From NCBI GenBank assembly GCA_000182565.2, contig KQ257456.1: a DNA stretch of 64,000 nt; one strand, written 5' to 3'. This DNA comes from Spizellomyces punctatus DAOM BR117. Its lineage: Eukaryota. Under the pieces are notes generated by a model. It made no database searches and was not told the DNA's origin. It saw only the letters and a list, made by a program, of their open reading frames with translations. Positions within the stretch are counted from its first letter, which is position 1, and each line of letters opens with the position of its first letter. The translations under genes and the position numbers were made by a program. Shown piece by piece: positions 36,123 to 43,958 of the stretch.

Positions 36123-37412
36123 ATCGCTTCTCTTTTCCGACGGCCACAAAGACCTGGGCCCAGCACAGCGAAGGCGTTCTGCCGTCACGGCGTGAGAGAC
36201 CCTCTGCTGTTTGAACGCGTTTTCGCGTTGCCTCACGCGCGGAGCTTACGTAACCACATCCTGTTCAGCTTACGCAGTGGGACGTTTTGGGTCACCTTTC
36301 GGCCCTCATCGAGGACCAACCTTTGACGACCTGGACGTACGATAGCTTTTTGTCCGCCCTGGCCTCTGATTGCAATGCATCGTTCCAAGGTCTCGCAACG
36401 CCGTTGCACCAAAATTGCGCGCGAAGGCTAACAATGAGACATTCTTGAGCCAGCGCCGGGGAGTAATCGAGGCGTTGCTGGGAAGTTACCAAGAGGAGGC
36501 AGTCCTGGATCTCGATACTGGTTTGGGGAGACGCTGCGGAGGCAATGTTTCTGTCGCTTGGTCAGAAATAGTGTTATGGTGCGGATAGGTGGTGGATGGC
36601 AGGTAAACAAACGAGTACTTTTGGATTACTTTTCATAAGCATTGTACTGAGTCTTTCTCTCGCACAGGAACTCAACATTTTCTTAACCGAACACACACAT
36701 CTTGAACACCGAATTCCAACAGCGCGATCCTTTTCCACAGGGGGAGATAAACGGGCAACTCGTTTACGACTCTGAAAGAATGGAGTTGGATATTGGGAGT
36801 TATTTAGGGGTTATTGGGAAGGTATTGGGATGGTTTGGGTATAGATTTTATACGGGGGTACGGCAATTGGGATGGAAGCGGTGGGTGGGGTGGTATGGGG
36901 ACCAAGTCGGAGAAGAGATATTCCGAACGGGACTTGGACGGCATAACGATTATATTCAGGATGGGACACGGTCTTGGCGTTAGAAGTTCTTCCTGTCGAT
37001 TACGCTACTGGAATATATTGTTGTGTGATAAAAGATTGTTTTAAGGGTTATCATATATCTTTCATTCATCCATTCATCTATCTGTCTGTGGTTTCTTGCA
37101 TTTCCTCGAGGTTTTCCTCAGTTACCTAAATCTGCCGGTGTCACCTCTCGGTCTTGAAGCTGAGCGAGAACACACCAGACAACCGGAATCGGCTGAACCG
37201 CTAGTAGGTCTGTTCAGATATTTCCTCAAAAAGCGCCAAAAAACTCGAAAAGGCGATTCTTGGCACTTTGTGGTGCGGATATTGACGCTAGTATATACTT
37301 TCCTTCAAGAGTTTTGATTCCCGCACTTTGGCCACTCACAAATATTATTATACCAGTAATATCCAATGAAAGATCAAAAATGTAAACAGTTCCCTAATCC
37401 TCTTTCACCCCA

Positions 37413-40400
37413 CTAAAGCAAGCTAAAAAAAGTCGCCACGATGGTCCCCAAGATCCCAAGCCATGCGCCGACTTTCACATTGGCAGCACCGCTGACGCGC
37501 GCCATTTGTATGCGGCTTTCATCACCCCTTTTCACCCTGAGGATGGACCACATGCCTTCCACGACGTGGGACCTGAGATTGCAATAGAGTGCAAATAAGA
37601 AACCCAGGAAATCATCAGCATGTAAATGAGCATTGTTGACGAGCTTACCTTAAATTACCCGCCCTCACAGCCCAATCTCCGACCTCCTCTGCCCGGAAAA
37701 GAAAAGTCTCGGTCCTACCAGGGTTGATGGCATTGTCGACACCGGTCGCAACCGCACCGGCATTTTCCAGTTCAGAAAACACATGTCCATGTACATGCAA
37801 CGAAATTGCTCTGGGTTTATCATTCGAAGCGACCATATGGAACAATTGAAGTCTTCCCCGAGTTGCATGGAAAATGGGAGTGGGCGGATTGTCAGGTGTA
37901 AGCCACACTGGATCAAACGTAGGAGCCGACCTGTAATTGAGTCCTTTCTGGCCCTGATCTTCGGGATCGATTCCATTGGGACTACCGCTCAAGGGTGACC
38001 GGACAAGATGGCAAATTTGGTCAATGTCTTTGTCTATTTCCCCGGCCTCCGATGGCCATTTACCATCCTTGAAGCCGTTGTTGTTACGGATGTCGCACCA
38101 TTCCTCGAGCCAAGGATTAGTGCTCAGCGGGAAGGTGTTGATGACATTGTGGAGGTGATCTTTGGGATATTGAGACGCGTCTAGTCTTCCGTTGGCGGTG
38201 TCGTTCATCACGTCCACCTCGTTCAGTCGTGGGGGTGTTGGGTCAAAGTCGGCGACCGGTTTTTCGGGGTCACCGTCATGGAACAGTCGTAGACCTAAAA
38301 TATCGGCAATTGTACTAATTAACAACTTTGAACCACAGTATTTTCCATGCATCCGCAATGCGTACTCACCGTCTTGAAGCATAACAACATGCTCATCCAT
38401 CTCAAATATCTCATCATCTTCCAAAGACGGATGGAATCCCATTGCTCCGCCGGTAGCTTGGAACCTAAGATCTTGATCGTGGAATTGTGGAGCGTCAAAT
38501 GTCCTCGTCAGTGTCGCCTCCGCTCCATACCAAGTGCTGGGAATCCAGCCTTCCTTCTCCACCAGCAGCGCGCCGATGAGACCGTGATGCCGATGGTTAC
38601 GGAAGTCTGCTTGATCTTGCAATAGAATGGGGCTGCCGTAGAACTATATTTTGCACACCGTGTCAGCAAGACGCTTTAGAAAACAAATGCGACTGGGGCA
38701 CACATACCTGGTCAGCAAACCATGTAAAAGCGCGCGTCTCACCATTTGCAACGGTTTGATCCCCGTTTTTGCCCACTAAAAGAGGCCCGCATCAGAGGAG
38801 ATGTTGACTCTATTAACGGGTAAACAGACATGGTATTTACCGTTCGTCCCGTCATTCACTCTGGTATCGAAGAGGACTATGTCGGCGTGAATAGAAACCC
38901 GCGGGGATACTTCGCGATAACTCCTCAAATCAACGGGAACTGTAGGATATAACGACTTAGGTCCCGACGATATGCGAGTTGCGGTCGGAAGTCAGCATAC
39001 CTTCCGGTCGGTTGGGCTCAGCTTTTAGATCAGGGTTAATATTGTTCGTCAACCAAACCGTAATCCATTCCCCTTCGATCGCCCGAATAACCAAAGGCTC
39101 CGGATTCTTATCCTTGTCCGTTTTCACCTCGATCCATTTTGTGGTCCCAGGTTCCTTATATGCCTCCAGTCGATAAATCAATCCAAAGGGATCAATTCGA
39201 TTTTGCCCCAGAAAGCCTTCCGTATAATCAATGCGCCGGCTTTCGGCCACTACACGATATTCCCTATGCTTTTTAGGGTCCGGTTTCTGTTGGCTGGGCA
39301 GTTGCTTCGCGAAGGGTCTCGGATTCGAAGGTAAGGTAGGGAGGTTTGGTACTTCCTTGTCGTGCACTCTCAGAAGTGACCAGCATCCGAGCCAGGTATC
39401 GTCAATTGCACGCCAATAGAGCATCTAGTACAAAGGGGTCGGTAACCTTGAAAACAACACGGCAGGCGGTGCAATCACATCCTTCACGGCTTACATGATC
39501 TCCTGGAGAATATACAGGTTCAACGATCTTTGTGAAAGCTTTTGAAATTCCGAGAATCTGTTGCTGAACAAGTCGGCTATTAGGGTCGGTGAAGAGATCG
39601 TGCCAGCTAAGAACGGGAAGAGATCTTAGAACTGAAGAATAAGAATAGATACGACCGCATATGGCGTACCGTAAACCGTAAGCATTGAAGCTATGCGACT
39701 CCTCATGCGATCCCTGGCCGATACGCAACCTTATAGTATCGTTCGGATACGATTGGTAAACCGTCGTGGAGGGATCACCAAAGGGATCAGATGAAAACAA
39801 AATGCTCGGGTCAGGATCTCGTCCGTTATTCTTCCTACGGAACTCCTTGATTCTTTCTCGGAGTGGTTCGCTCTTGTAGTTAACGAGCATGATACCCTGA
39901 TCTTGGTCCGAGCCTGGGAAGTTAGGTGGGTTCAGCGGCAGTCCGTGTCTGTTGAAGGCTGGATGGAAGTCTGCGACGAATTGGACAACTTCGCGGTACC
40001 AATCGCCTTCTCTTGTTTTGATGGCTGCTTGGACGCCAGTAACAATAGGTCGGTTGAGATTGTCGTTGGCAAACCAGGTGGCTCCTAAAGGAATGCAGGG
40101 AGATCAATTAATCCTTCCGCTCCCCCCAACTCTTGAGGAGGTAGAATTTGTGTCCTTACCAAAAGGCTGAACCAAGTTCAGTGCATACAACCCCTTCTTT
40201 TGCCGAAAATTAGCAAAGAGATGATCGTGAAAAAATACTAGGAAAAGCAACCTGACATTAGAAGAGTCCTCATACTACCAAAACACGACTCTGAATGCAG
40301 AAATGCTCACCATGACCAAACTCTTCATCAGCCCACCACCTATGGATAAGGAATTTTCCAAAGCGAGGACCGCTCAGATAGTTCCATCCAACGGAAGCGC

Positions 40401-43159
40401 CATCAGAAACCAGGACATCGAATTTGACCAGGTGTACATGGATGCCGACTTCGCCTTCGGTCGGATGCGCCGGGCAGTCGGGAAAGGGCGGATCAAAGGC
40501 ATTCCCGGGAATAAAAGTATCGAATTTGTTTTTCAAAGTATTTCTCAAGACGTCACCCTTGTTCGATCGCATGATGAAGGGATCGTAGGGTGTCGGGGTG
40601 TTGCGATCGCCGAATTCTTCTTCTTCCAGCTGATAGAGATGACCTGAGGGGTCTGCGACGAGAGATAATAAGTACGCAAACAAAGTACTGAAAGCCATGT
40701 CAGTACACGTCTTCCGCACCATGCCAGCCAAATCTATTGAACAGAATATTTCGGTTCAGAGCAGATATGTTGCGGGCCACTTCCCGTACAGGGATGCCCC
40801 TGTCCACAAAATTCTGTCTAGGTGTCGGAATGAGAGTGAAGGTGCTTCCAGGTTGCGGATCTCTGTTCATGGCGTTAACTTCCTTCTCGGTCGCAGGTCG
40901 GAAGTCCTGAAAATTATGGAAGAGGTGAATTGCGAGATTGGTTGTGAGATTGGTTTTTGAAAATGGATAAGATAACTTACGGATCCTTCCGGTATGGGAC
41001 CCCACATTTCCGTAGGCCAAGGGACTCGCGGCGACTTCTGGTGAATTTTACCAGCAATGAAATTGGGAAATCCGGGGCGGTCAAGTGTGGGGTTTGGCGG
41101 GGCTTGACGGTCCGGTAGAACCCGCAGAGGCAGAATTTGCTTTCCGTTGGGATAGGTCAAACTGCCGTCTTGTAGAGTATCAAAGGTACGGAAAATGCCC
41201 CACATTCCAAGAGTAAAGTGCGGATACAACTAGAGGAAGAGATATGTATAAGTTCAAGAGTTTAAGCACCGGGAAGATACAACATGACATACGTGGCAAT
41301 GGAAGATCGCATCGCCGATACTTTTCTAAAATTCAGACAGAGAGAGAGAGGCATTAGAAAAAGGAAAATCAGCAAAAGGAATCATCTGGTTTTCAACACA
41401 CCAGGCGGGATCCTGCACCATATAAGGCCGTAAAGGTCGTTGCCCATTGCGGGGACAATGAGAAGGAATCAATGATCGGACTGTCCACTTTGCCATCGAC
41501 GGCATACCATTGATGGACTATAAGAGGCAAAGTACATGAATAATACATCGAAGTACGTTGACGCCGAGAAAGCATAAAACAAACCATGCCAGTGAAAAAC
41601 TAGCACAGCAAAGCCGTATTAGTTATGAATGTTTTTTCTTCAAGCGTTTGCGTAATACTAGCTTACCATGCGTCTCTCTAACACCACCATGGACAACGCG
41701 GAACTTTACAGGATCGCCAGCATAGTTGAAGAAAACAAGGCCAGGATCACCATGCATCCACGAAGAATGATGCTGTTCTTCGCCGTACACGGGTACTTCC
41801 AGAGTTCCAGCTTTAATGCGATCGAAGACATCGCTTTGACGATTACGAAGTGGTTCGGAACGATAGTCTACGGTGAAGCAGACAAAAGATTAAGTAACCG
41901 AAAATATTGGACTGGGTAATCCCGGATGCTTACTGATTGCATGCACGGCGTCTTCCTCTTTGGCATTAATTTGGGCGTGGTTCGTTACAAATTTGTTGGG
42001 ACCGCATGGGCTTTCCGTCAGGGTACGACCAAATCGAATCTCAGGCTCATCGTGAAAGATTGTCACATGCTCCCGAAACGAAGCGGTGGGGTGGTGAAGT
42101 TCCGGTTCTTCGTCAAAGAAGTTTGCCTTGAAGTTCTCGAATCCACTGGAGGAGTTATAAACTGTTAGAGAATGAAGTTGAGGCGCCTTGCCACTTTTGG
42201 TACTTACGGGGGTTTAGGGGGATGGATATCGGCAGTTAACCCATCACGAATGGGTTCCCCAGTATGCGGATCTGTCCACCTGGAACCGTAAGGCTCCACG
42301 ATGAGAGCGCCAAACAGTCCATGCAAATTGGTGTCATTCTCCGTGCCTGGAAAAACAATGTGATTGTTCAATTGAGTAAGAATCCGATCCTAGAAGCAAT
42401 CGCAGCCCTTAAGACGTACCTCCGAGATTTCCGGCATCGCCGATGTGGAATACCCCTTGGTGACTGCATTTCCAGTGGTAAGTATATTTACCGCCAGGAG
42501 GAGCCAAAGACGGTGGATTGCGGCCGACTAATAATAAGAAAGGGTCAGCACGGGCTGCTGAGCGGGGAATTTTGAAAGTACTTACCCGCAGATCCATCAG
42601 ATTTAACATCATGTCCATCTAATGCCACATGCATCCCTACAGGATGCTTCCTGATTTTGTTCTCCAGCACGATGGTGACGGTATCATGCAAGTTGCAGCG
42701 GAGCACAAGTGGGCGGACGAGGGGATTGAGTTCGACCCGCGGTGCTTTTGCTGAGGGAATCAACGGATCCGGCGAAACGAACGAATGAGCGTAGCGTTCA
42801 AGAGCGTCCTCGTTTTCTATTAAACAAGCGCTATAAGTTTCGCAGAATTGTGACTGGAATACCGGACTAGCAAAATTACCTTTGAGAGCGAACATTAAAC
42901 CATTCGGGTCATGATCCCCGTATACATTATAAACGATCGGAACTTCCAAGGCAACCACATCTAACGTACGAGACAATGAGCTCTAACTTGCATCACTTGA
43001 TAGGAGGCAAATCTCACCATAGTGGCGATTTTGGCGTTTGACAGCTACGGTGAAGTCAAACGAATCTACATCGTGGCCATGGACAAAGGCCGGAACTGCG
43101 AGCAACAAAGTGCCAAGTGACAGGCACTTTACAGCATGAAATGAAGCCCCAAAGAGCAT
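37413..43159 (-). CDS. MnxG-type large multi-cupredoxin-domain multicopper oxidase (putative Mn(II) oxidase) with signal peptide and GPI-anchor-like tail; about 21 exons, frame intact
   Basis: Spliced motifs IVYNVYGDHDPNG, LHGLFGALIVEP, EEQHHSSWMHGDP, VHGGVRETHVFHWHVHQW, IGDAIFHCHLYPHFTLGMWG, HVHLVKFDVLVSDGASVGWNY, FFHDHLFAN, GSHEESHSFN, DQADFRNHR, LHVHGH, GNLRSHVVEGMW, collinear with Bacillus MnxG as I recall it. Confidence 0.88.
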
Positions 43160-43274: not shown

Positions 43275-43958
43275 ACAGAGCACGATCGAGTGAAAGTAAT
43301 CGTCTGATGTCTGTCGCAATCTGCATCCTACTCGGAAAGGCAACGATGCGCCTTGGAGCAAGGCTGAGGGCGAACCTAGGTGTATTCTGTAACGTCTTTT
43401 ACTAAAAGCGAATGATGAGAAGCTGCGGCTCGCTGAGCTTGTCCTTTCAACCAGAAGATTACCACGAGGAGGGGGCAAAGAAATTGGTGGAAAATGAACG
43501 TAGCAACAAGTACGGACAGAGCACGATCGAGTGAAAGTAATCGTTTGATGTCTGTCGCAAATCTGCATCCTACTCGGAAAGGCAACGATGCGCCTTGGAG
43601 CAAGGCTGAGGGCGAACCTAGGTGTATTCTGCAACGTCTTTTACCAAAAGCGAAGATGAGAGGCTGTCCTTTCAACCAGAAGATTACCACGAGGAGGGGG
43701 CAAAGAAATTGGTGGAAAACGAACGTAGCAACAAGTACGGACAGAGCACAATCGAGTGAAAGTAATCGTTTGATGTCTGTCGCAAATCTGCATCCTACTC
43801 GGAAAGGCAACGATGCGCCTTGGAGGGCGAACCTAGGTGTATTCTGCAACGTCTTTTACCAAAAGCGAAGATGAGAGTCTGACCTTTGAACCAGAAGATT
43901 ACCTACCACGAGGAGCGGGCAAAGAAATTGGTGGAAAACGAAGTAGCAACAAGTACGG
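43275..43958. repeat. Tandem direct repeat, three copies of about 241, 225 and 218 bp
   Basis: Unit start acagagcac(g/a)atcgagtgaaagtaatcg at 43275, 43516 and 43741; each copy ends ...gtagcaacaagtacgg; copies differ by small indels. Confidence 0.95.

What the first reader, a model, noticed from the sequence alone, without database searches (positions are those of the whole stretch)
37413..43159. Intact, ~20-intron MnxG-type manganese-oxidase-like multicopper oxidase in a fungus: likely ancient bacterial horizontal transfer
Seen: manually splicing about 21 exons (all GT-AG) gives one continuous frame. It contains the type-1 Cu ligands (ETH...HCHLYPH....M) and four HxH motifs (HWH, HCH, HVH, HDH). 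Knowledge: this motif order, with HCH in the N-terminal third and repeated GDHDPNG/HGDP/GMW modules, matches Bacillus MnxG as I recall it. It does not match fungal laccases or Fet3, whose HCH is C-terminal. Inference: a bacterial Mn(II)-oxidase-family gene was acquired and fully intronised by a chytrid-type fungus, suggesting metal oxidation or biomineralisation in this lineage. I do not recall this being described. No MnxE/MnxF-like partner is visible nearby.
Basis: partly seen in the sequence, partly recalled or inferred. Interest (0 to 1): 0.92.

Follow-up and report, generated by a model that had tools for sequence, protein, structure and literature searches.

The report
Bacterial-type MnxG copper oxidase in chytrid
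A soil chytrid fungus carries an intact, intron-rich and transcribed gene for a large copper oxidase of the bacterial MnxG (manganese-oxidase) family, almost certainly gained from bacteria long ago, which makes it a testable candidate for a new kind of fungal manganese oxidation.

Summary
On the minus strand, 43159..37413, 22 exons joined by 21 GT..AG introns (57-78 nt) give one 1442-aa frame. It carries HVFHWH, HCHLYPHFTLGM, HVH and HDH in that order.

The window is Spizellomyces punctatus. The gene is public as SPPG_09220, but that model is cut to 1180 aa. RNA reads cover the extra 3' exon and confirm the last intron.

It is a true MnxG homologue:
- The Powellomyces orthologue hits PDB 9bxa_A (Bacillus MnxG) at E 1.4e-196.
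- An AlphaFold model matches 9bxa_A at TM 0.77, against 0.48 for ceruloplasmin.
- All 12 canonical copper ligands are kept.

Related proteins occur in five chytrid species of two orders and in Basidiobolus. Every other named relative listed is bacterial. The fungal sequences form one clade among the bacterial ones.

MnxE/MnxF partners sit only beside Bacillota genes (26-27 of 80 loci) and not in the window.

Identity and bacterial origin are well supported. Mn(II) oxidation is inferred, not shown. I found no paper describing this. Verdict: a new eukaryotic member of a known enzyme family, of moderate interest.

The parts
37413..43159 (-). Whole CDS of the MnxG-family multicopper oxidase (22 exons, 1442 aa; public locus tag SPPG_09220, annotated as 1180 aa)
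   Evidence: model; identity to P0006; MnxG homology
43018..43159 (-). Exon 1. Includes an N-terminal hydrophobic signal-peptide-like segment (aa 1-28, nt 43076-43159)
   Evidence: Hydropathy. The segment is present in fungal rows and absent from bacterial rows
42880..42960 (-). Exon 2
42586..42816 (-). Exon 3
42420..42527 (-). Exon 4
42208..42346 (-). Exon 5
41934..42145 (-). Exon 6
41667..41867 (-). Exon 7 (ends inside the codon of H371, the first His of HVFHWH)
41585..41599 (-). Exon 8, a 15-nt micro-exon that encodes the core of the HVFHWH copper motif (H374)
   Evidence: The motif is invariant in 107 of 107 bacterial rows
41402..41517 (-). Exon 9
41293..41325 (-). Exon 10, 33 nt, aa 416-426, ending in HCH (H424, C425, H426)
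40981..41229 (-). Exon 11 (begins LYPHFTLGM: type-1 Cu His430 and Met435)
40720..40906 (-). Exon 12
40311..40652 (-). Exon 13 (HVH at aa 643)
40160..40237 (-). Exon 14 (HDH at aa 689)
39670..40081 (-). Exon 15
39495..39606 (-). Exon 16
39001..39424 (-). Exon 17
38841..38939 (-). Exon 18
38708..38775 (-). Exon 19
38370..38643 (-). Exon 20 (HRHH at aa 1100). The public model leaves the homologous frame just after this exon
37649..38294 (-). Exon 21: last cupredoxin-like domain with HVHGH (aa 1341). Missing from the public 1180-aa model
   Evidence: colinear with P0001, P0003-P0005; hit to 9bxa_A residues 1065-1140
37413..37572 (-). Exon 22 with the stop codon. The last 16 aa (nt 37416-37463) form a hydrophobic tail after small residues, which looks like a GPI signal
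   Evidence: RNA depth 22; the joint 37570->37647 equals intron 21; hydropathy. The GPI reading is inference
37200..37412 (-). 3' untranslated region (at least this far)
   Evidence: RNA depth about 9 over 37200-37406

Best explanation
This is a resident, transcribed Spizellomyces punctatus gene for a roughly 160-kDa multi-domain multicopper oxidase of the bacterial MnxG family. An ancestor of Spizellomycetales and Rhizophlyctidales, or an earlier fungus, acquired it from a bacterium. It has since gained 21 spliceosomal introns, a secretory N-terminus and, in this species, a hydrophobic C-terminal tail that looks like a GPI signal.

Proposed mechanism (inferred from homology):
- The enzyme enters the secretory pathway and sits at or outside the cell surface.
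- Substrate is oxidised one electron at a time at a type-1 copper (H371, C425, H430, M435).
- Electrons pass through the H424-C425-H426 bridge to a trinuclear copper cluster (H374, H376, H424, H426, H643, H645, H689, H691), which reduces O2 to water.
- By analogy with Bacillus MnxG, the most likely substrate is Mn(II), oxidised to Mn(III)/Mn(IV) and deposited as Mn oxide. Here this would happen without the MnxE3F3 cap.

My odds: real gene of the MnxG family about 0.95; bacterial origin about 0.9; Mn(II) as the physiological substrate about 0.5.
For: Gene is real. The 22-exon frame has 21 of 21 GT..AG introns, and 18 of 21 introns would break the frame if retained. RNA reads give depth 22 on exon 22, and 3 reads from 2 starts span intron 21.

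Resident in the fungus. The neighbours are eIF3L/Paf67, a CASTOR1-like protein, a GH5 enzyme and a mitochondrial RNase II. The contig is 1.47 Mb.

Family.
- 9bxa_A MnxG at E 1.4e-196 over query aa 45-1111.
- AlphaFold model with pLDDT 87.4 and pTM 0.86; best fold match is 9bxa_A at TM 0.77/0.74, 35% identity over 1127 columns.
- Each of the 12 ligand positions is kept in 12-13 of 13 fungal rows (the misses are gaps in incomplete rows) and in 107 of 107 bacterial rows.

Origin.
- Of the best 120 of 1190 hits, 13 are fungal. Every other hit that carries a name is bacterial; the rest are unnamed metagenome proteins.
- With a fungal-only profile, 13 fungal proteins come first and then bacteria.
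- 495 of 513 candidate stretches in the collection of one genome per GTDB prokaryote species encode a relative.
- All fungal rows form one clade, with SH-aLRT 100 under LG+C20 PMSF.
- Rooted on a more distant proteobacterial MnxG-like protein, the order is Bacillota, then an 11-row bacterial group, then fungi plus 80 bacterial rows with support 95.

Secretion. The N-terminal hydrophobic segment is present in fungal rows and absent from bacterial rows.
Against: - No activity data exist for any fungal member, or for the non-Bacillota bacterial members nearest to them.
- The only characterised close relative works in a complex with MnxE3F3, which is not in the window. The rest of the genome could not be searched.
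- Residues that bind Mn in MnxG could not be checked, because the cryo-EM paper is not held.
- Only 1 of 21 junctions has read support. The RNA run is 3'-biased and only about 6% of it was read.
- The root rests on one long outgroup branch in a FastTree run. No specific donor phylum is resolved.
- The GPI reading is by eye and hydropathy only, and 12 of the 14 fungal sequences lack such a tail.
Confidence: 0.6

Rival explanations
1. Same protein and same origin, but the physiological substrate is not Mn(II). It could be a ferroxidase, a cuprous oxidase, or a phenol oxidase that cross-links or pigments the wall of sporangia or resting spores.
For: The copper sites are generic to all multicopper oxidases. 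The fungal clade is not close to either characterised Mn oxidase: 35% identity to Bacillus MnxG, and 190-215 bits against a cut-off of 3100 for the Pseudomonas-type model NF041487. No MnxE/F is present. Fungal rows have their own histidines in the last domain: H1341 is His in 10 of 13 fungal rows against Thr in 88 of 107 bacterial rows.
Against: The only members of this wider family with known function are Mn oxidases: Bacillus MnxG (the PDB entry) and Pseudomonas MnxG (passages of PMC13689576). Bacillus-type sequences and a distant relative of the Pseudomonas type bracket the fungal clade in the rooted tree. Fungi already have Fet3-type ferroxidases and laccases for the other roles (established knowledge).
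Confidence: 0.3
2. Chytrids and Basidiobolus acquired the gene in two separate transfers from related, unsampled bacteria. Their grouping would then be an artefact of long branches or shared eukaryotic composition.
For: The tool flagged 'long branches meet' for the chytrid and Basidiobolus stems, and an odd letter make-up for five of the six Basidiobolus rows. When each group is left out in turn, the other attaches at neighbouring but not identical deep nodes. Bacterial gene transfer into Basidiobolus is the subject of PMC7466969 (title and abstract in the listing; its main text has none of my five copper or oxidase terms).
Against: The fungal clade has support 100 and the chytrid-main plus Basidiobolus grouping 99 under a site-heterogeneous model. 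A second chytrid paralogue pair (P0110, P0104) branches outside that grouping. Both groups share the N-terminal hydrophobic extension that bacteria lack.
Confidence: 0.15
3. The gene is an old eukaryotic multicopper oxidase inherited vertically, and the bacterial look is convergence or a transfer from fungi to bacteria.
For: The unrooted tree alone cannot exclude a root on the fungal stem. The six-domain fold is shared with ceruloplasmin at TM 0.48.
Against: No eukaryote other than two chytrid orders and Basidiobolus appears among the best 120 hits of either search. The Atlas neighbours shown are 100% bacterial. Relatives occur in 495 prokaryote species genomes whose 80 titled loci span at least seven phyla. 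The outgroup joins a bacterial branch, not the fungal stem. Ceruloplasmin identity is 10-12%. A 2013 survey found MnxG relatives only in prokaryotes (passages of PMC3600357).
Confidence: 0.04
4. Bacterial contamination of the assembly, or a dead pseudogene.
For: None found.
Against: 21 spliceosomal introns, eukaryotic flanking genes and a 1.47-Mb contig. Orthologues occur in five other assemblies. The frame is intact and all ligands are kept. The RNA is spliced.
Confidence: 0.01

Closest known systems
MnxG of Bacillus sp. PL-12 (catalytic subunit of the Mnx Mn(II) oxidase complex, PDB 9bxa)
   Same: Colinear homology over nearly the whole length (E 1.4e-196, query 45-1111 against chain 3-994; one search covers the last domain). 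Same fold (TM 0.77, 35% identity). The copper motifs come in the same order, with HxxHxH and HCHxxxHxxxxM before HxH and HxH. The solved chain is the H340A variant by its title. In the alignment the chain shows A where the fungal proteins have the fourth His of HCHLYPH. This is position 340 by my count from the alignment coordinates.
   Different: Eukaryotic gene with 21 introns. It has an N-terminal secretory segment and a C-terminal hydrophobic tail. It is about 215 aa longer, with low-confidence loops in the model. No MnxE/MnxF lie beside it. In the rooted tree the Bacillota group is the most distant ingroup branch from the fungi.
Uncharacterised MnxG-like multicopper oxidases of Actinomycetota, Cyanobacteria, Myxococcota, Alphaproteobacteria and others (for example P0164, P0167, P0174, P0189, P0241)
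   Same: Highest bacterial identity, 42-47% over 70-92% of the query for the named examples. Similar length (1270-1440 aa). No MnxE/F beside them: 0 of 47 non-Bacillota loci. All ligands are kept.
   Different: Bacterial, intron-less, and without the N-terminal hydrophobic segment. Function untested. Some carry an automatic 'manganese oxidase' label from one source.
Pseudomonas-type MnxG (NCBIfam NF041487)
   Same: Distantly related large multicopper oxidase with reported Mn oxidase activity (passages of PMC13689576).
   Different: The fungal proteins score 190-215 bits against a cut-off of 3100. A closer proteobacterial relative of that model (L087 ORF, 807 bits) is only 344 bits from Bacillus MnxG and serves as the outgroup.
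Eukaryotic multicopper oxidases: ceruloplasmin/hephaestin, Fet3, fungal laccases
   Same: Cupredoxin-domain copper oxidases. Ceruloplasmin also has six domains (TM 0.48).
   Different: 10-14% identity. No sequence hit at E<=0.01 in the PDB search apart from two-domain laccases at about 8e-5. In laccases and Fet3 the HCH motif is C-terminal (established knowledge); here it is at aa 424 of 1442.

Membership tests
MnxG-family multi-domain multicopper oxidase (Bacillus Mnx type) | Significant, colinear, near full-length sequence similarity to solved MnxG | tested here: met
   Powellomyces orthologue (72% identical to the window's protein) against 9bxa_A, E 1.4e-196, 659 bits; the window's own last large frame hits 9bxa_A residues 1065-1140 at E 0.006
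MnxG-family multi-domain multicopper oxidase (Bacillus Mnx type) | Same three-dimensional architecture | tested here: met
   model of aa 1-1180 (pLDDT 87.4) against 9bxa_A, TM 0.77/0.74, E 1.5e-98. Next best is ceruloplasmin at TM 0.48. The last domain (aa 1181-1442) was not modelled
MnxG-family multi-domain multicopper oxidase (Bacillus Mnx type) | Type-1 Cu and trinuclear-cluster ligands present, in the MnxG order (HxxHxH, HCHxxxHxxxxM, then HxH, HxH) | tested here: met
   H371, H374, H376, H424, C425, H426, H430, M435, H643, H645, H689, H691. Each position is kept in 107 of 107 bacterial rows and 12-13 of 13 fungal rows. Assigning each ligand to a copper type follows general multicopper-oxidase knowledge, not a call
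MnxG-family multi-domain multicopper oxidase (Bacillus Mnx type) | Accessory subunits MnxE and MnxF encoded next to mnxG | tested here: not met
   no MnxE or MnxF match among the six-frame ORFs (>=45 aa) of the 64-kb window. The probes were validated against 9bxa_B and 9bxa_E. The rest of the genome is not held. The feature is confined to Bacillota: 26-27 of 33 Bacillota loci and 0 of 47 others
MnxG-family multi-domain multicopper oxidase (Bacillus Mnx type) | Mn(II) to Mn(IV) oxidase activity | not testable with these tools
   Needs an enzyme or culture assay
NCBIfam NF041487 copper_ox_MnxG (Pseudomonas-type equivalog) | Score at or above the curated cut-off of 3100 bits | tested here: not met
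   190-215 bits for four chytrid proteins. Bacillus-type and other bacterial members of this family also score only 200-315 bits
Vertically inherited eukaryotic multicopper oxidases (ceruloplasmin/hephaestin, Fet3, laccase) | Closest relatives are eukaryotic multicopper oxidases | tested here: not met
Gene acquired from bacteria by horizontal transfer | Recipient sequences nested among donor-domain sequences, with a patchy distribution in the recipient domain | tested here: met
   (one fungal clade among the bacterial rows; root outside it, resting on one outgroup in a FastTree run). (only Spizellomycetales, Rhizophlyctidales and Basidiobolus among eukaryotes in the best 120 of each list; lower ranks not seen)
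Gene acquired from bacteria by horizontal transfer | Physically integrated in the recipient genome, not a contaminant | tested here: met
   introns; eukaryotic neighbours; 1.47-Mb contig; spliced RNA

The most novel reading that the evidence does not exclude
This is the first eukaryotic MnxG-type Mn(II) oxidase. It would be a cell-surface enzyme (secreted, possibly GPI-anchored) that makes Mn oxide without the MnxE3F3 cap. It would descend from one bacterial gene that entered fungi before chytrids and Basidiobolus parted (or later moved between fungi), duplicated, and was lost almost everywhere else. That would give early-diverging soil fungi a bacterial-style route to Mn biomineralisation, distinct from the laccase, peroxidase and superoxide routes known in Dikarya.
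Probability: 0.35. Interest if true: 0.72.

Novelty: new member of a known kind. Interest (0 to 1): 0.55.

Why it matters
Enzymatic Mn(II) oxidation by MnxG-type oxidases has so far been treated as a prokaryotic trait. A 2013 survey of six-domain copper proteins found MnxG relatives only in Bacteria and two Archaea (passages of PMC3600357). My nine searches of the held library found no paper linking MnxG to chytrids or Basidiobolus.

If it is an active Mn oxidase:
- It would add a new enzymatic route and a new group of organisms to soil Mn cycling.
- It would show that this enzyme can work without MnxE/F, which also bears on the many uncharacterised bacterial homologues.
- It would be a clean case of an old bacterial gene fully adapted to a eukaryote: introns including a 15-nt micro-exon through a copper site, a secretory signal and a membrane tail.

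S. punctatus is, to my recollection and from no call here, a transformable chytrid, so the idea is testable.

If the substrate proves to be something else, this remains an ordinary, well-documented fungal xenologue. The analysis also corrects the public gene model, which lacks the last about 260 residues.

Tried and rejected
Searches that gave nothing or could not run:
- Whole-genome search for paralogues and MnxE/F: no genome is held for this window.
- The cryo-EM paper on Mnx (JACS 2024) is not held. PMC5622069 had no passage on ligands. So I could not check Mn-binding or tunnel residues.
- Supplementary tables were closed. Those of the 44-genome transfer survey (PMC11291939) may list this gene. 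Its main text has no occurrence of multicopper, copper, cupredoxin, manganese or laccase.

RNA evidence:
- No RNA holder was listed by the index.
- Runs X1-X3 are colinear with the genome through the introns, so they behave as DNA and say nothing on splicing.
- The one RNA run laid (X7) is 3'-biased, so 20 of 21 junctions had no coverage.

Family and fold checks:
- Pfam on single exons gave nothing above threshold. On whole orthologues it gave only weak Cu-oxidase_2/_3 hits.
- NF041487 membership was rejected.
- The protein Atlas had no structure for this protein, so only the feature search ran.

Other ideas tested:
- Introner-like origin of the introns: 0 similar intron pairs by blastn-short at E<=0.01.
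- A second copy in the window: P0110 and P0104 hit nothing outside the gene.
- Pseudomonas-type MnxG as outgroup: 0 of 401 genomes sampled from the phylum of genome G002 reached the cut-off. One partial relative was used instead.

Not run: an AU test, and a 'careful' bootstrap tree. Only the 'quick' IQ-TREE search finished, after two 300-s calls.

Full report
OBSERVATION

The long open frames between 37.4 and 43.2 kb all lie on the minus strand. A script that walked the public protein P0006 along the DNA, allowing only GT/GC..AG gaps, reproduced its residues 1-1172 exactly from 20 exons. The public model then leaves the frame that all homologues follow (it ends ...LQDVQLPIF). Following the orthologues instead (tblastn) adds exon 21 (38294-37649) and exon 22 (37572-37413).

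The full model has 22 exons, 4329 nt and 1442 aa, with no internal stop. It has 21 of 21 GT..AG introns of 57-78 nt.
- Fifteen introns carry an in-frame stop and three more shift the frame.
- Introns 2, 15 and 20 are in-frame and stop-free, so they rest on homology.
- The introns are AT-richer than the CDS (GC 0.42 against 0.51).
- They are unrelated to one another: 0 similar pairs, so they are not introner-like.
- Two micro-exons cut through the copper sites. A 15-nt exon holds the core of HVFHWH, and a 33-nt exon ends in HCH.

GDHDPNG itself occurs once, with degenerate echoes.

ORGANISM, ANNOTATION AND EXPRESSION

The window is Spizellomyces punctatus DAOM BR117. P0006 (SPPG_09220, 1180 aa, on a contig of 1,465,700 bases) is 100% identical to the exons. 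Neighbouring frames encode typical eukaryotic proteins: eIF3L/Paf67, a CASTOR1-like ACT protein, a GH5 enzyme and a mitochondrial RNB/cyt-4 RNase. GC content is even across the window.

No run was indexed as RNA. One RNA run of the same species label, laid as raw reads (about 6% of the run read, 3'-biased), gave the following:
- depth 22 over 37407-37613 and depth 9 over 37200-37406;
- one joint, 37570->37647, skipping 76 nt with CT..AC ends (cut +2). That is my intron 21 read from the plus strand. It was seen in 3 reads from 2 start positions.

So the gene is transcribed from the minus strand and the transcript includes exon 22, which the public model lacks. The other 20 junctions had no coverage. 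Runs X1-X3 are colinear with the genome and act as DNA.

WHAT THE PROTEIN IS

Single exons are too diverged for Pfam. The last large frame alone already hits PDB 9bxa_A, named MnxG, at E 0.006.

- Sequence. The full-length Powellomyces orthologue (72% identical to P0006) hits 9bxa_A at E 1.4e-196 (659 bits) in colinear stretches from query aa 45 to 1111. The next PDB hits are two-domain laccases at about 8e-5, and no ceruloplasmin, Fet3 or three-domain laccase appears at E<=0.01.
- Fold. An AlphaFold2 model of aa 1-1180, built on a 45-row alignment, has pLDDT 87.4 and pTM 0.86. Its best solved match is 9bxa_A (E 1.5e-98, TM 0.77/0.74, 35% identity over 1127 columns). Ceruloplasmin and coagulation factors V and VIII follow at TM about 0.45-0.48 and 10-13% identity.
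- Ligands. In a 120-row alignment the twelve canonical ligands (H371, H374, H376, H424, C425, H426, H430, M435, H643, H645, H689, H691) are kept in 107 of 107 bacterial rows. They are kept in 12-13 of 13 fungal rows, and the misses are gaps in incomplete rows.
- The H340A clue. The solved chain is the 'H340A' variant by its title. In the alignment it shows Ala exactly where the fungal proteins have the fourth His of HCHLYPH. So the fungal proteins keep the residue that the structural study removed.
- Pseudomonas-type model. The curated model NF041487 is not met: 190-215 bits against a cut-off of 3100. Bacillus-type members also score only about 315 bits.

ACCESSORY SUBUNITS

In a Neobacillus locus the two small genes just upstream of the mnxG homologue match 9bxa_B (MnxE, E 6.6e-22) and 9bxa_E (MnxF, E 1.9e-13). 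I built profiles from these and searched all six-frame ORFs of 80 bacterial loci and of the window.
- MnxE was found in 26 of 80 loci and MnxF in 27 of 80.
- By record title, all of these are among the 33 Bacillota loci. In nearly all of them the genes sit directly upstream on the same strand.
- Neither was found in five Lachnospiraceae/Roseburia loci, in any of the 47 non-Bacillota loci, or in the window.

It is also the normal state of this family outside Bacillota. The rest of the fungal genome could not be searched.

DISTRIBUTION AND PHYLOGENY

A full-length search gave 1190 hits, of which the best 120 were listed. Thirteen of those are fungal:
- Spizellomyces, Powellomyces, Fimicolochytrium, two Rhizophlyctis rosea assemblies and Borealophlyctis (two proteins);
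- six proteins of Basidiobolus meristosporus and B. ranarum.

Every other listed hit that carries a name is bacterial; the rest are unnamed metagenome proteins. The best of these reach 47% identity.

A profile of the fungal sequences alone ranked 13 fungal proteins first, then bacteria (best 120 of 2444). This list includes a new second Fimicolochytrium paralogue, P0110. The nearest Atlas clusters shown are 100% bacterial. In the collection of one genome per GTDB prokaryote species, 495 of 513 candidate stretches encode a relative. The 80 loci kept are titled as Cyanobacteria, Bacteroidota, Myxococcota, Alphaproteobacteria, Actinomycetota, Bacillota and Acidobacteriota. I did not see ranks below 120 in either protein list, so rarer eukaryotic members cannot be excluded.

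Trees:
- FastTree on all 120 rows (1292 columns) puts every fungal row in one clade with support 100.
- IQ-TREE 'quick' used LG+C20 PMSF on 48 rows by 1205 columns: my model, 12 fungal proteins and 35 bacterial proteins that I picked to span the clades. It gives the same clade at SH-aLRT 100.
- Inside that clade, Spizellomycetales (3 rows) and Rhizophlyctidales (3 rows) follow the accepted relationship of the two orders. Basidiobolus (6 rows) is their sister at 99. The second Borealophlyctis paralogue lies outside both.
- Adding P0110 joins it to that paralogue with support 100. So a duplication predates the split of the two chytrid orders.
- Leaving out Basidiobolus or the chytrids moves the remaining group by only one deep node.
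- For a root I took a 2054-aa proteobacterial ORF (L087). It scores 807 bits on NF041487 and only 344 bits against Bacillus MnxG. FastTree then gives (Bacillota 16, (11 bacteria, (14 fungi, 80 bacteria; support 95))).

Caveats: there is one long outgroup branch, only FastTree was used for the rooted run, no AU test was run, and no donor phylum is resolved.

HOW IT PROBABLY WORKS

Shown: an intact, spliced, transcribed gene; the MnxG fold; and complete type-1 and trinuclear copper ligand sets.

Inferred from general multicopper-oxidase chemistry: one-electron oxidation at the type-1 copper, transfer through the His-Cys-His bridge, and four-electron reduction of O2 at the trinuclear cluster.

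Inferred from sequence: entry into the secretory pathway. An N-terminal hydrophobic segment is present in 10 of the 14 fungal sequences inspected by hydropathy, and bacterial proteins start directly at the first domain. In Spizellomyces a 16-residue hydrophobic C-terminus follows small residues, which looks like a GPI signal. A similar tail exists in P0110 only.

Inferred by homology: the substrate is Mn(II). In Bacillus, Mn(II) enters a tunnel, is oxidised stepwise and leaves as MnO2 through the MnxE3F3 ring (passage of PMC13689576). The fungal enzyme, like most bacterial relatives, would have to work without that ring. I put Mn(II) at about 0.5. Other metals or phenolic wall precursors make up most of the rest.

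COMPARISON AND NOVELTY

The protein is a member of the MnxG family in sequence, fold and ligands. It is not a member of the Pseudomonas-type equivalog, and it lacks the Bacillus accessory genes.

Nine searches of the held library found no paper linking MnxG to these fungi.
- The 2013 survey of six-domain copper proteins found MnxG relatives only in prokaryotes (passages).
- The survey of transfers into 44 early-diverging fungi does not mention copper oxidases in its main text.
- The Basidiobolus transfer paper has none of my five search terms.

The gene itself has been in public databases as an uncharacterised, truncated protein.

VERDICT

This is a new eukaryotic member of a known enzyme family, acquired from bacteria long ago. 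Its function is plausible but untested. Interest is moderate (0.55), not the 0.92 first given.

Noticed in passing
window 43275-43942: Three tandem copies of a unit of about 225-242 bp (96-100% alike in its best-kept blocks) lie just upstream of the gene's start codon, in the presumed promoter region.
   Followed up: partly
window 37413-38369: The public model SPPG_09220 (1180 aa) lacks the last two exons, about 260 residues that include the final cupredoxin-like domain. Homology and RNA reads support the longer model.
   Followed up: yes
window 40719-41546: A few RNA reads (depth about 0.2-1.5) lie in the opposite orientation to the reads at the 3' end of the gene. This could be a weak antisense transcript or library noise.
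   Followed up: no
window 38297: One DNA-like contig (run X3) lacks one base inside intron 20, next to its acceptor T-run. It could be a strain difference or an assembly error, and it has no effect on the CDS.
   Followed up: no
L050, L057, L059, L067, L075: Gut-associated Lachnospiraceae/Roseburia genomes carry MnxG-family genes (34-36% identity to the query) without MnxE/F beside them, unlike the other Bacillota loci.
   Followed up: partly
L039 5130-5993; L037 10557-11344: In the Ammonifex locus the MnxE and MnxF matches fall in one open frame, which may be a fusion. In Bacillus bruguierae they lie downstream of the matched gene rather than upstream.
   Followed up: no
P0002 and P0110 (Fimicolochytrium jonesii): The two paralogues are both reported from a longest contig of 459,799 bases, so they may lie on the same contig. 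No second copy lies in the Spizellomyces window.
   Followed up: partly
model aa 1341-1345 (window exon 21): Fungal proteins have HVHGH in the last domain. The first His is His in 10 of 13 fungal rows but Thr in 88 of 107 bacterial rows. This could be an extra metal site specific to the fungal clade.
   Followed up: no
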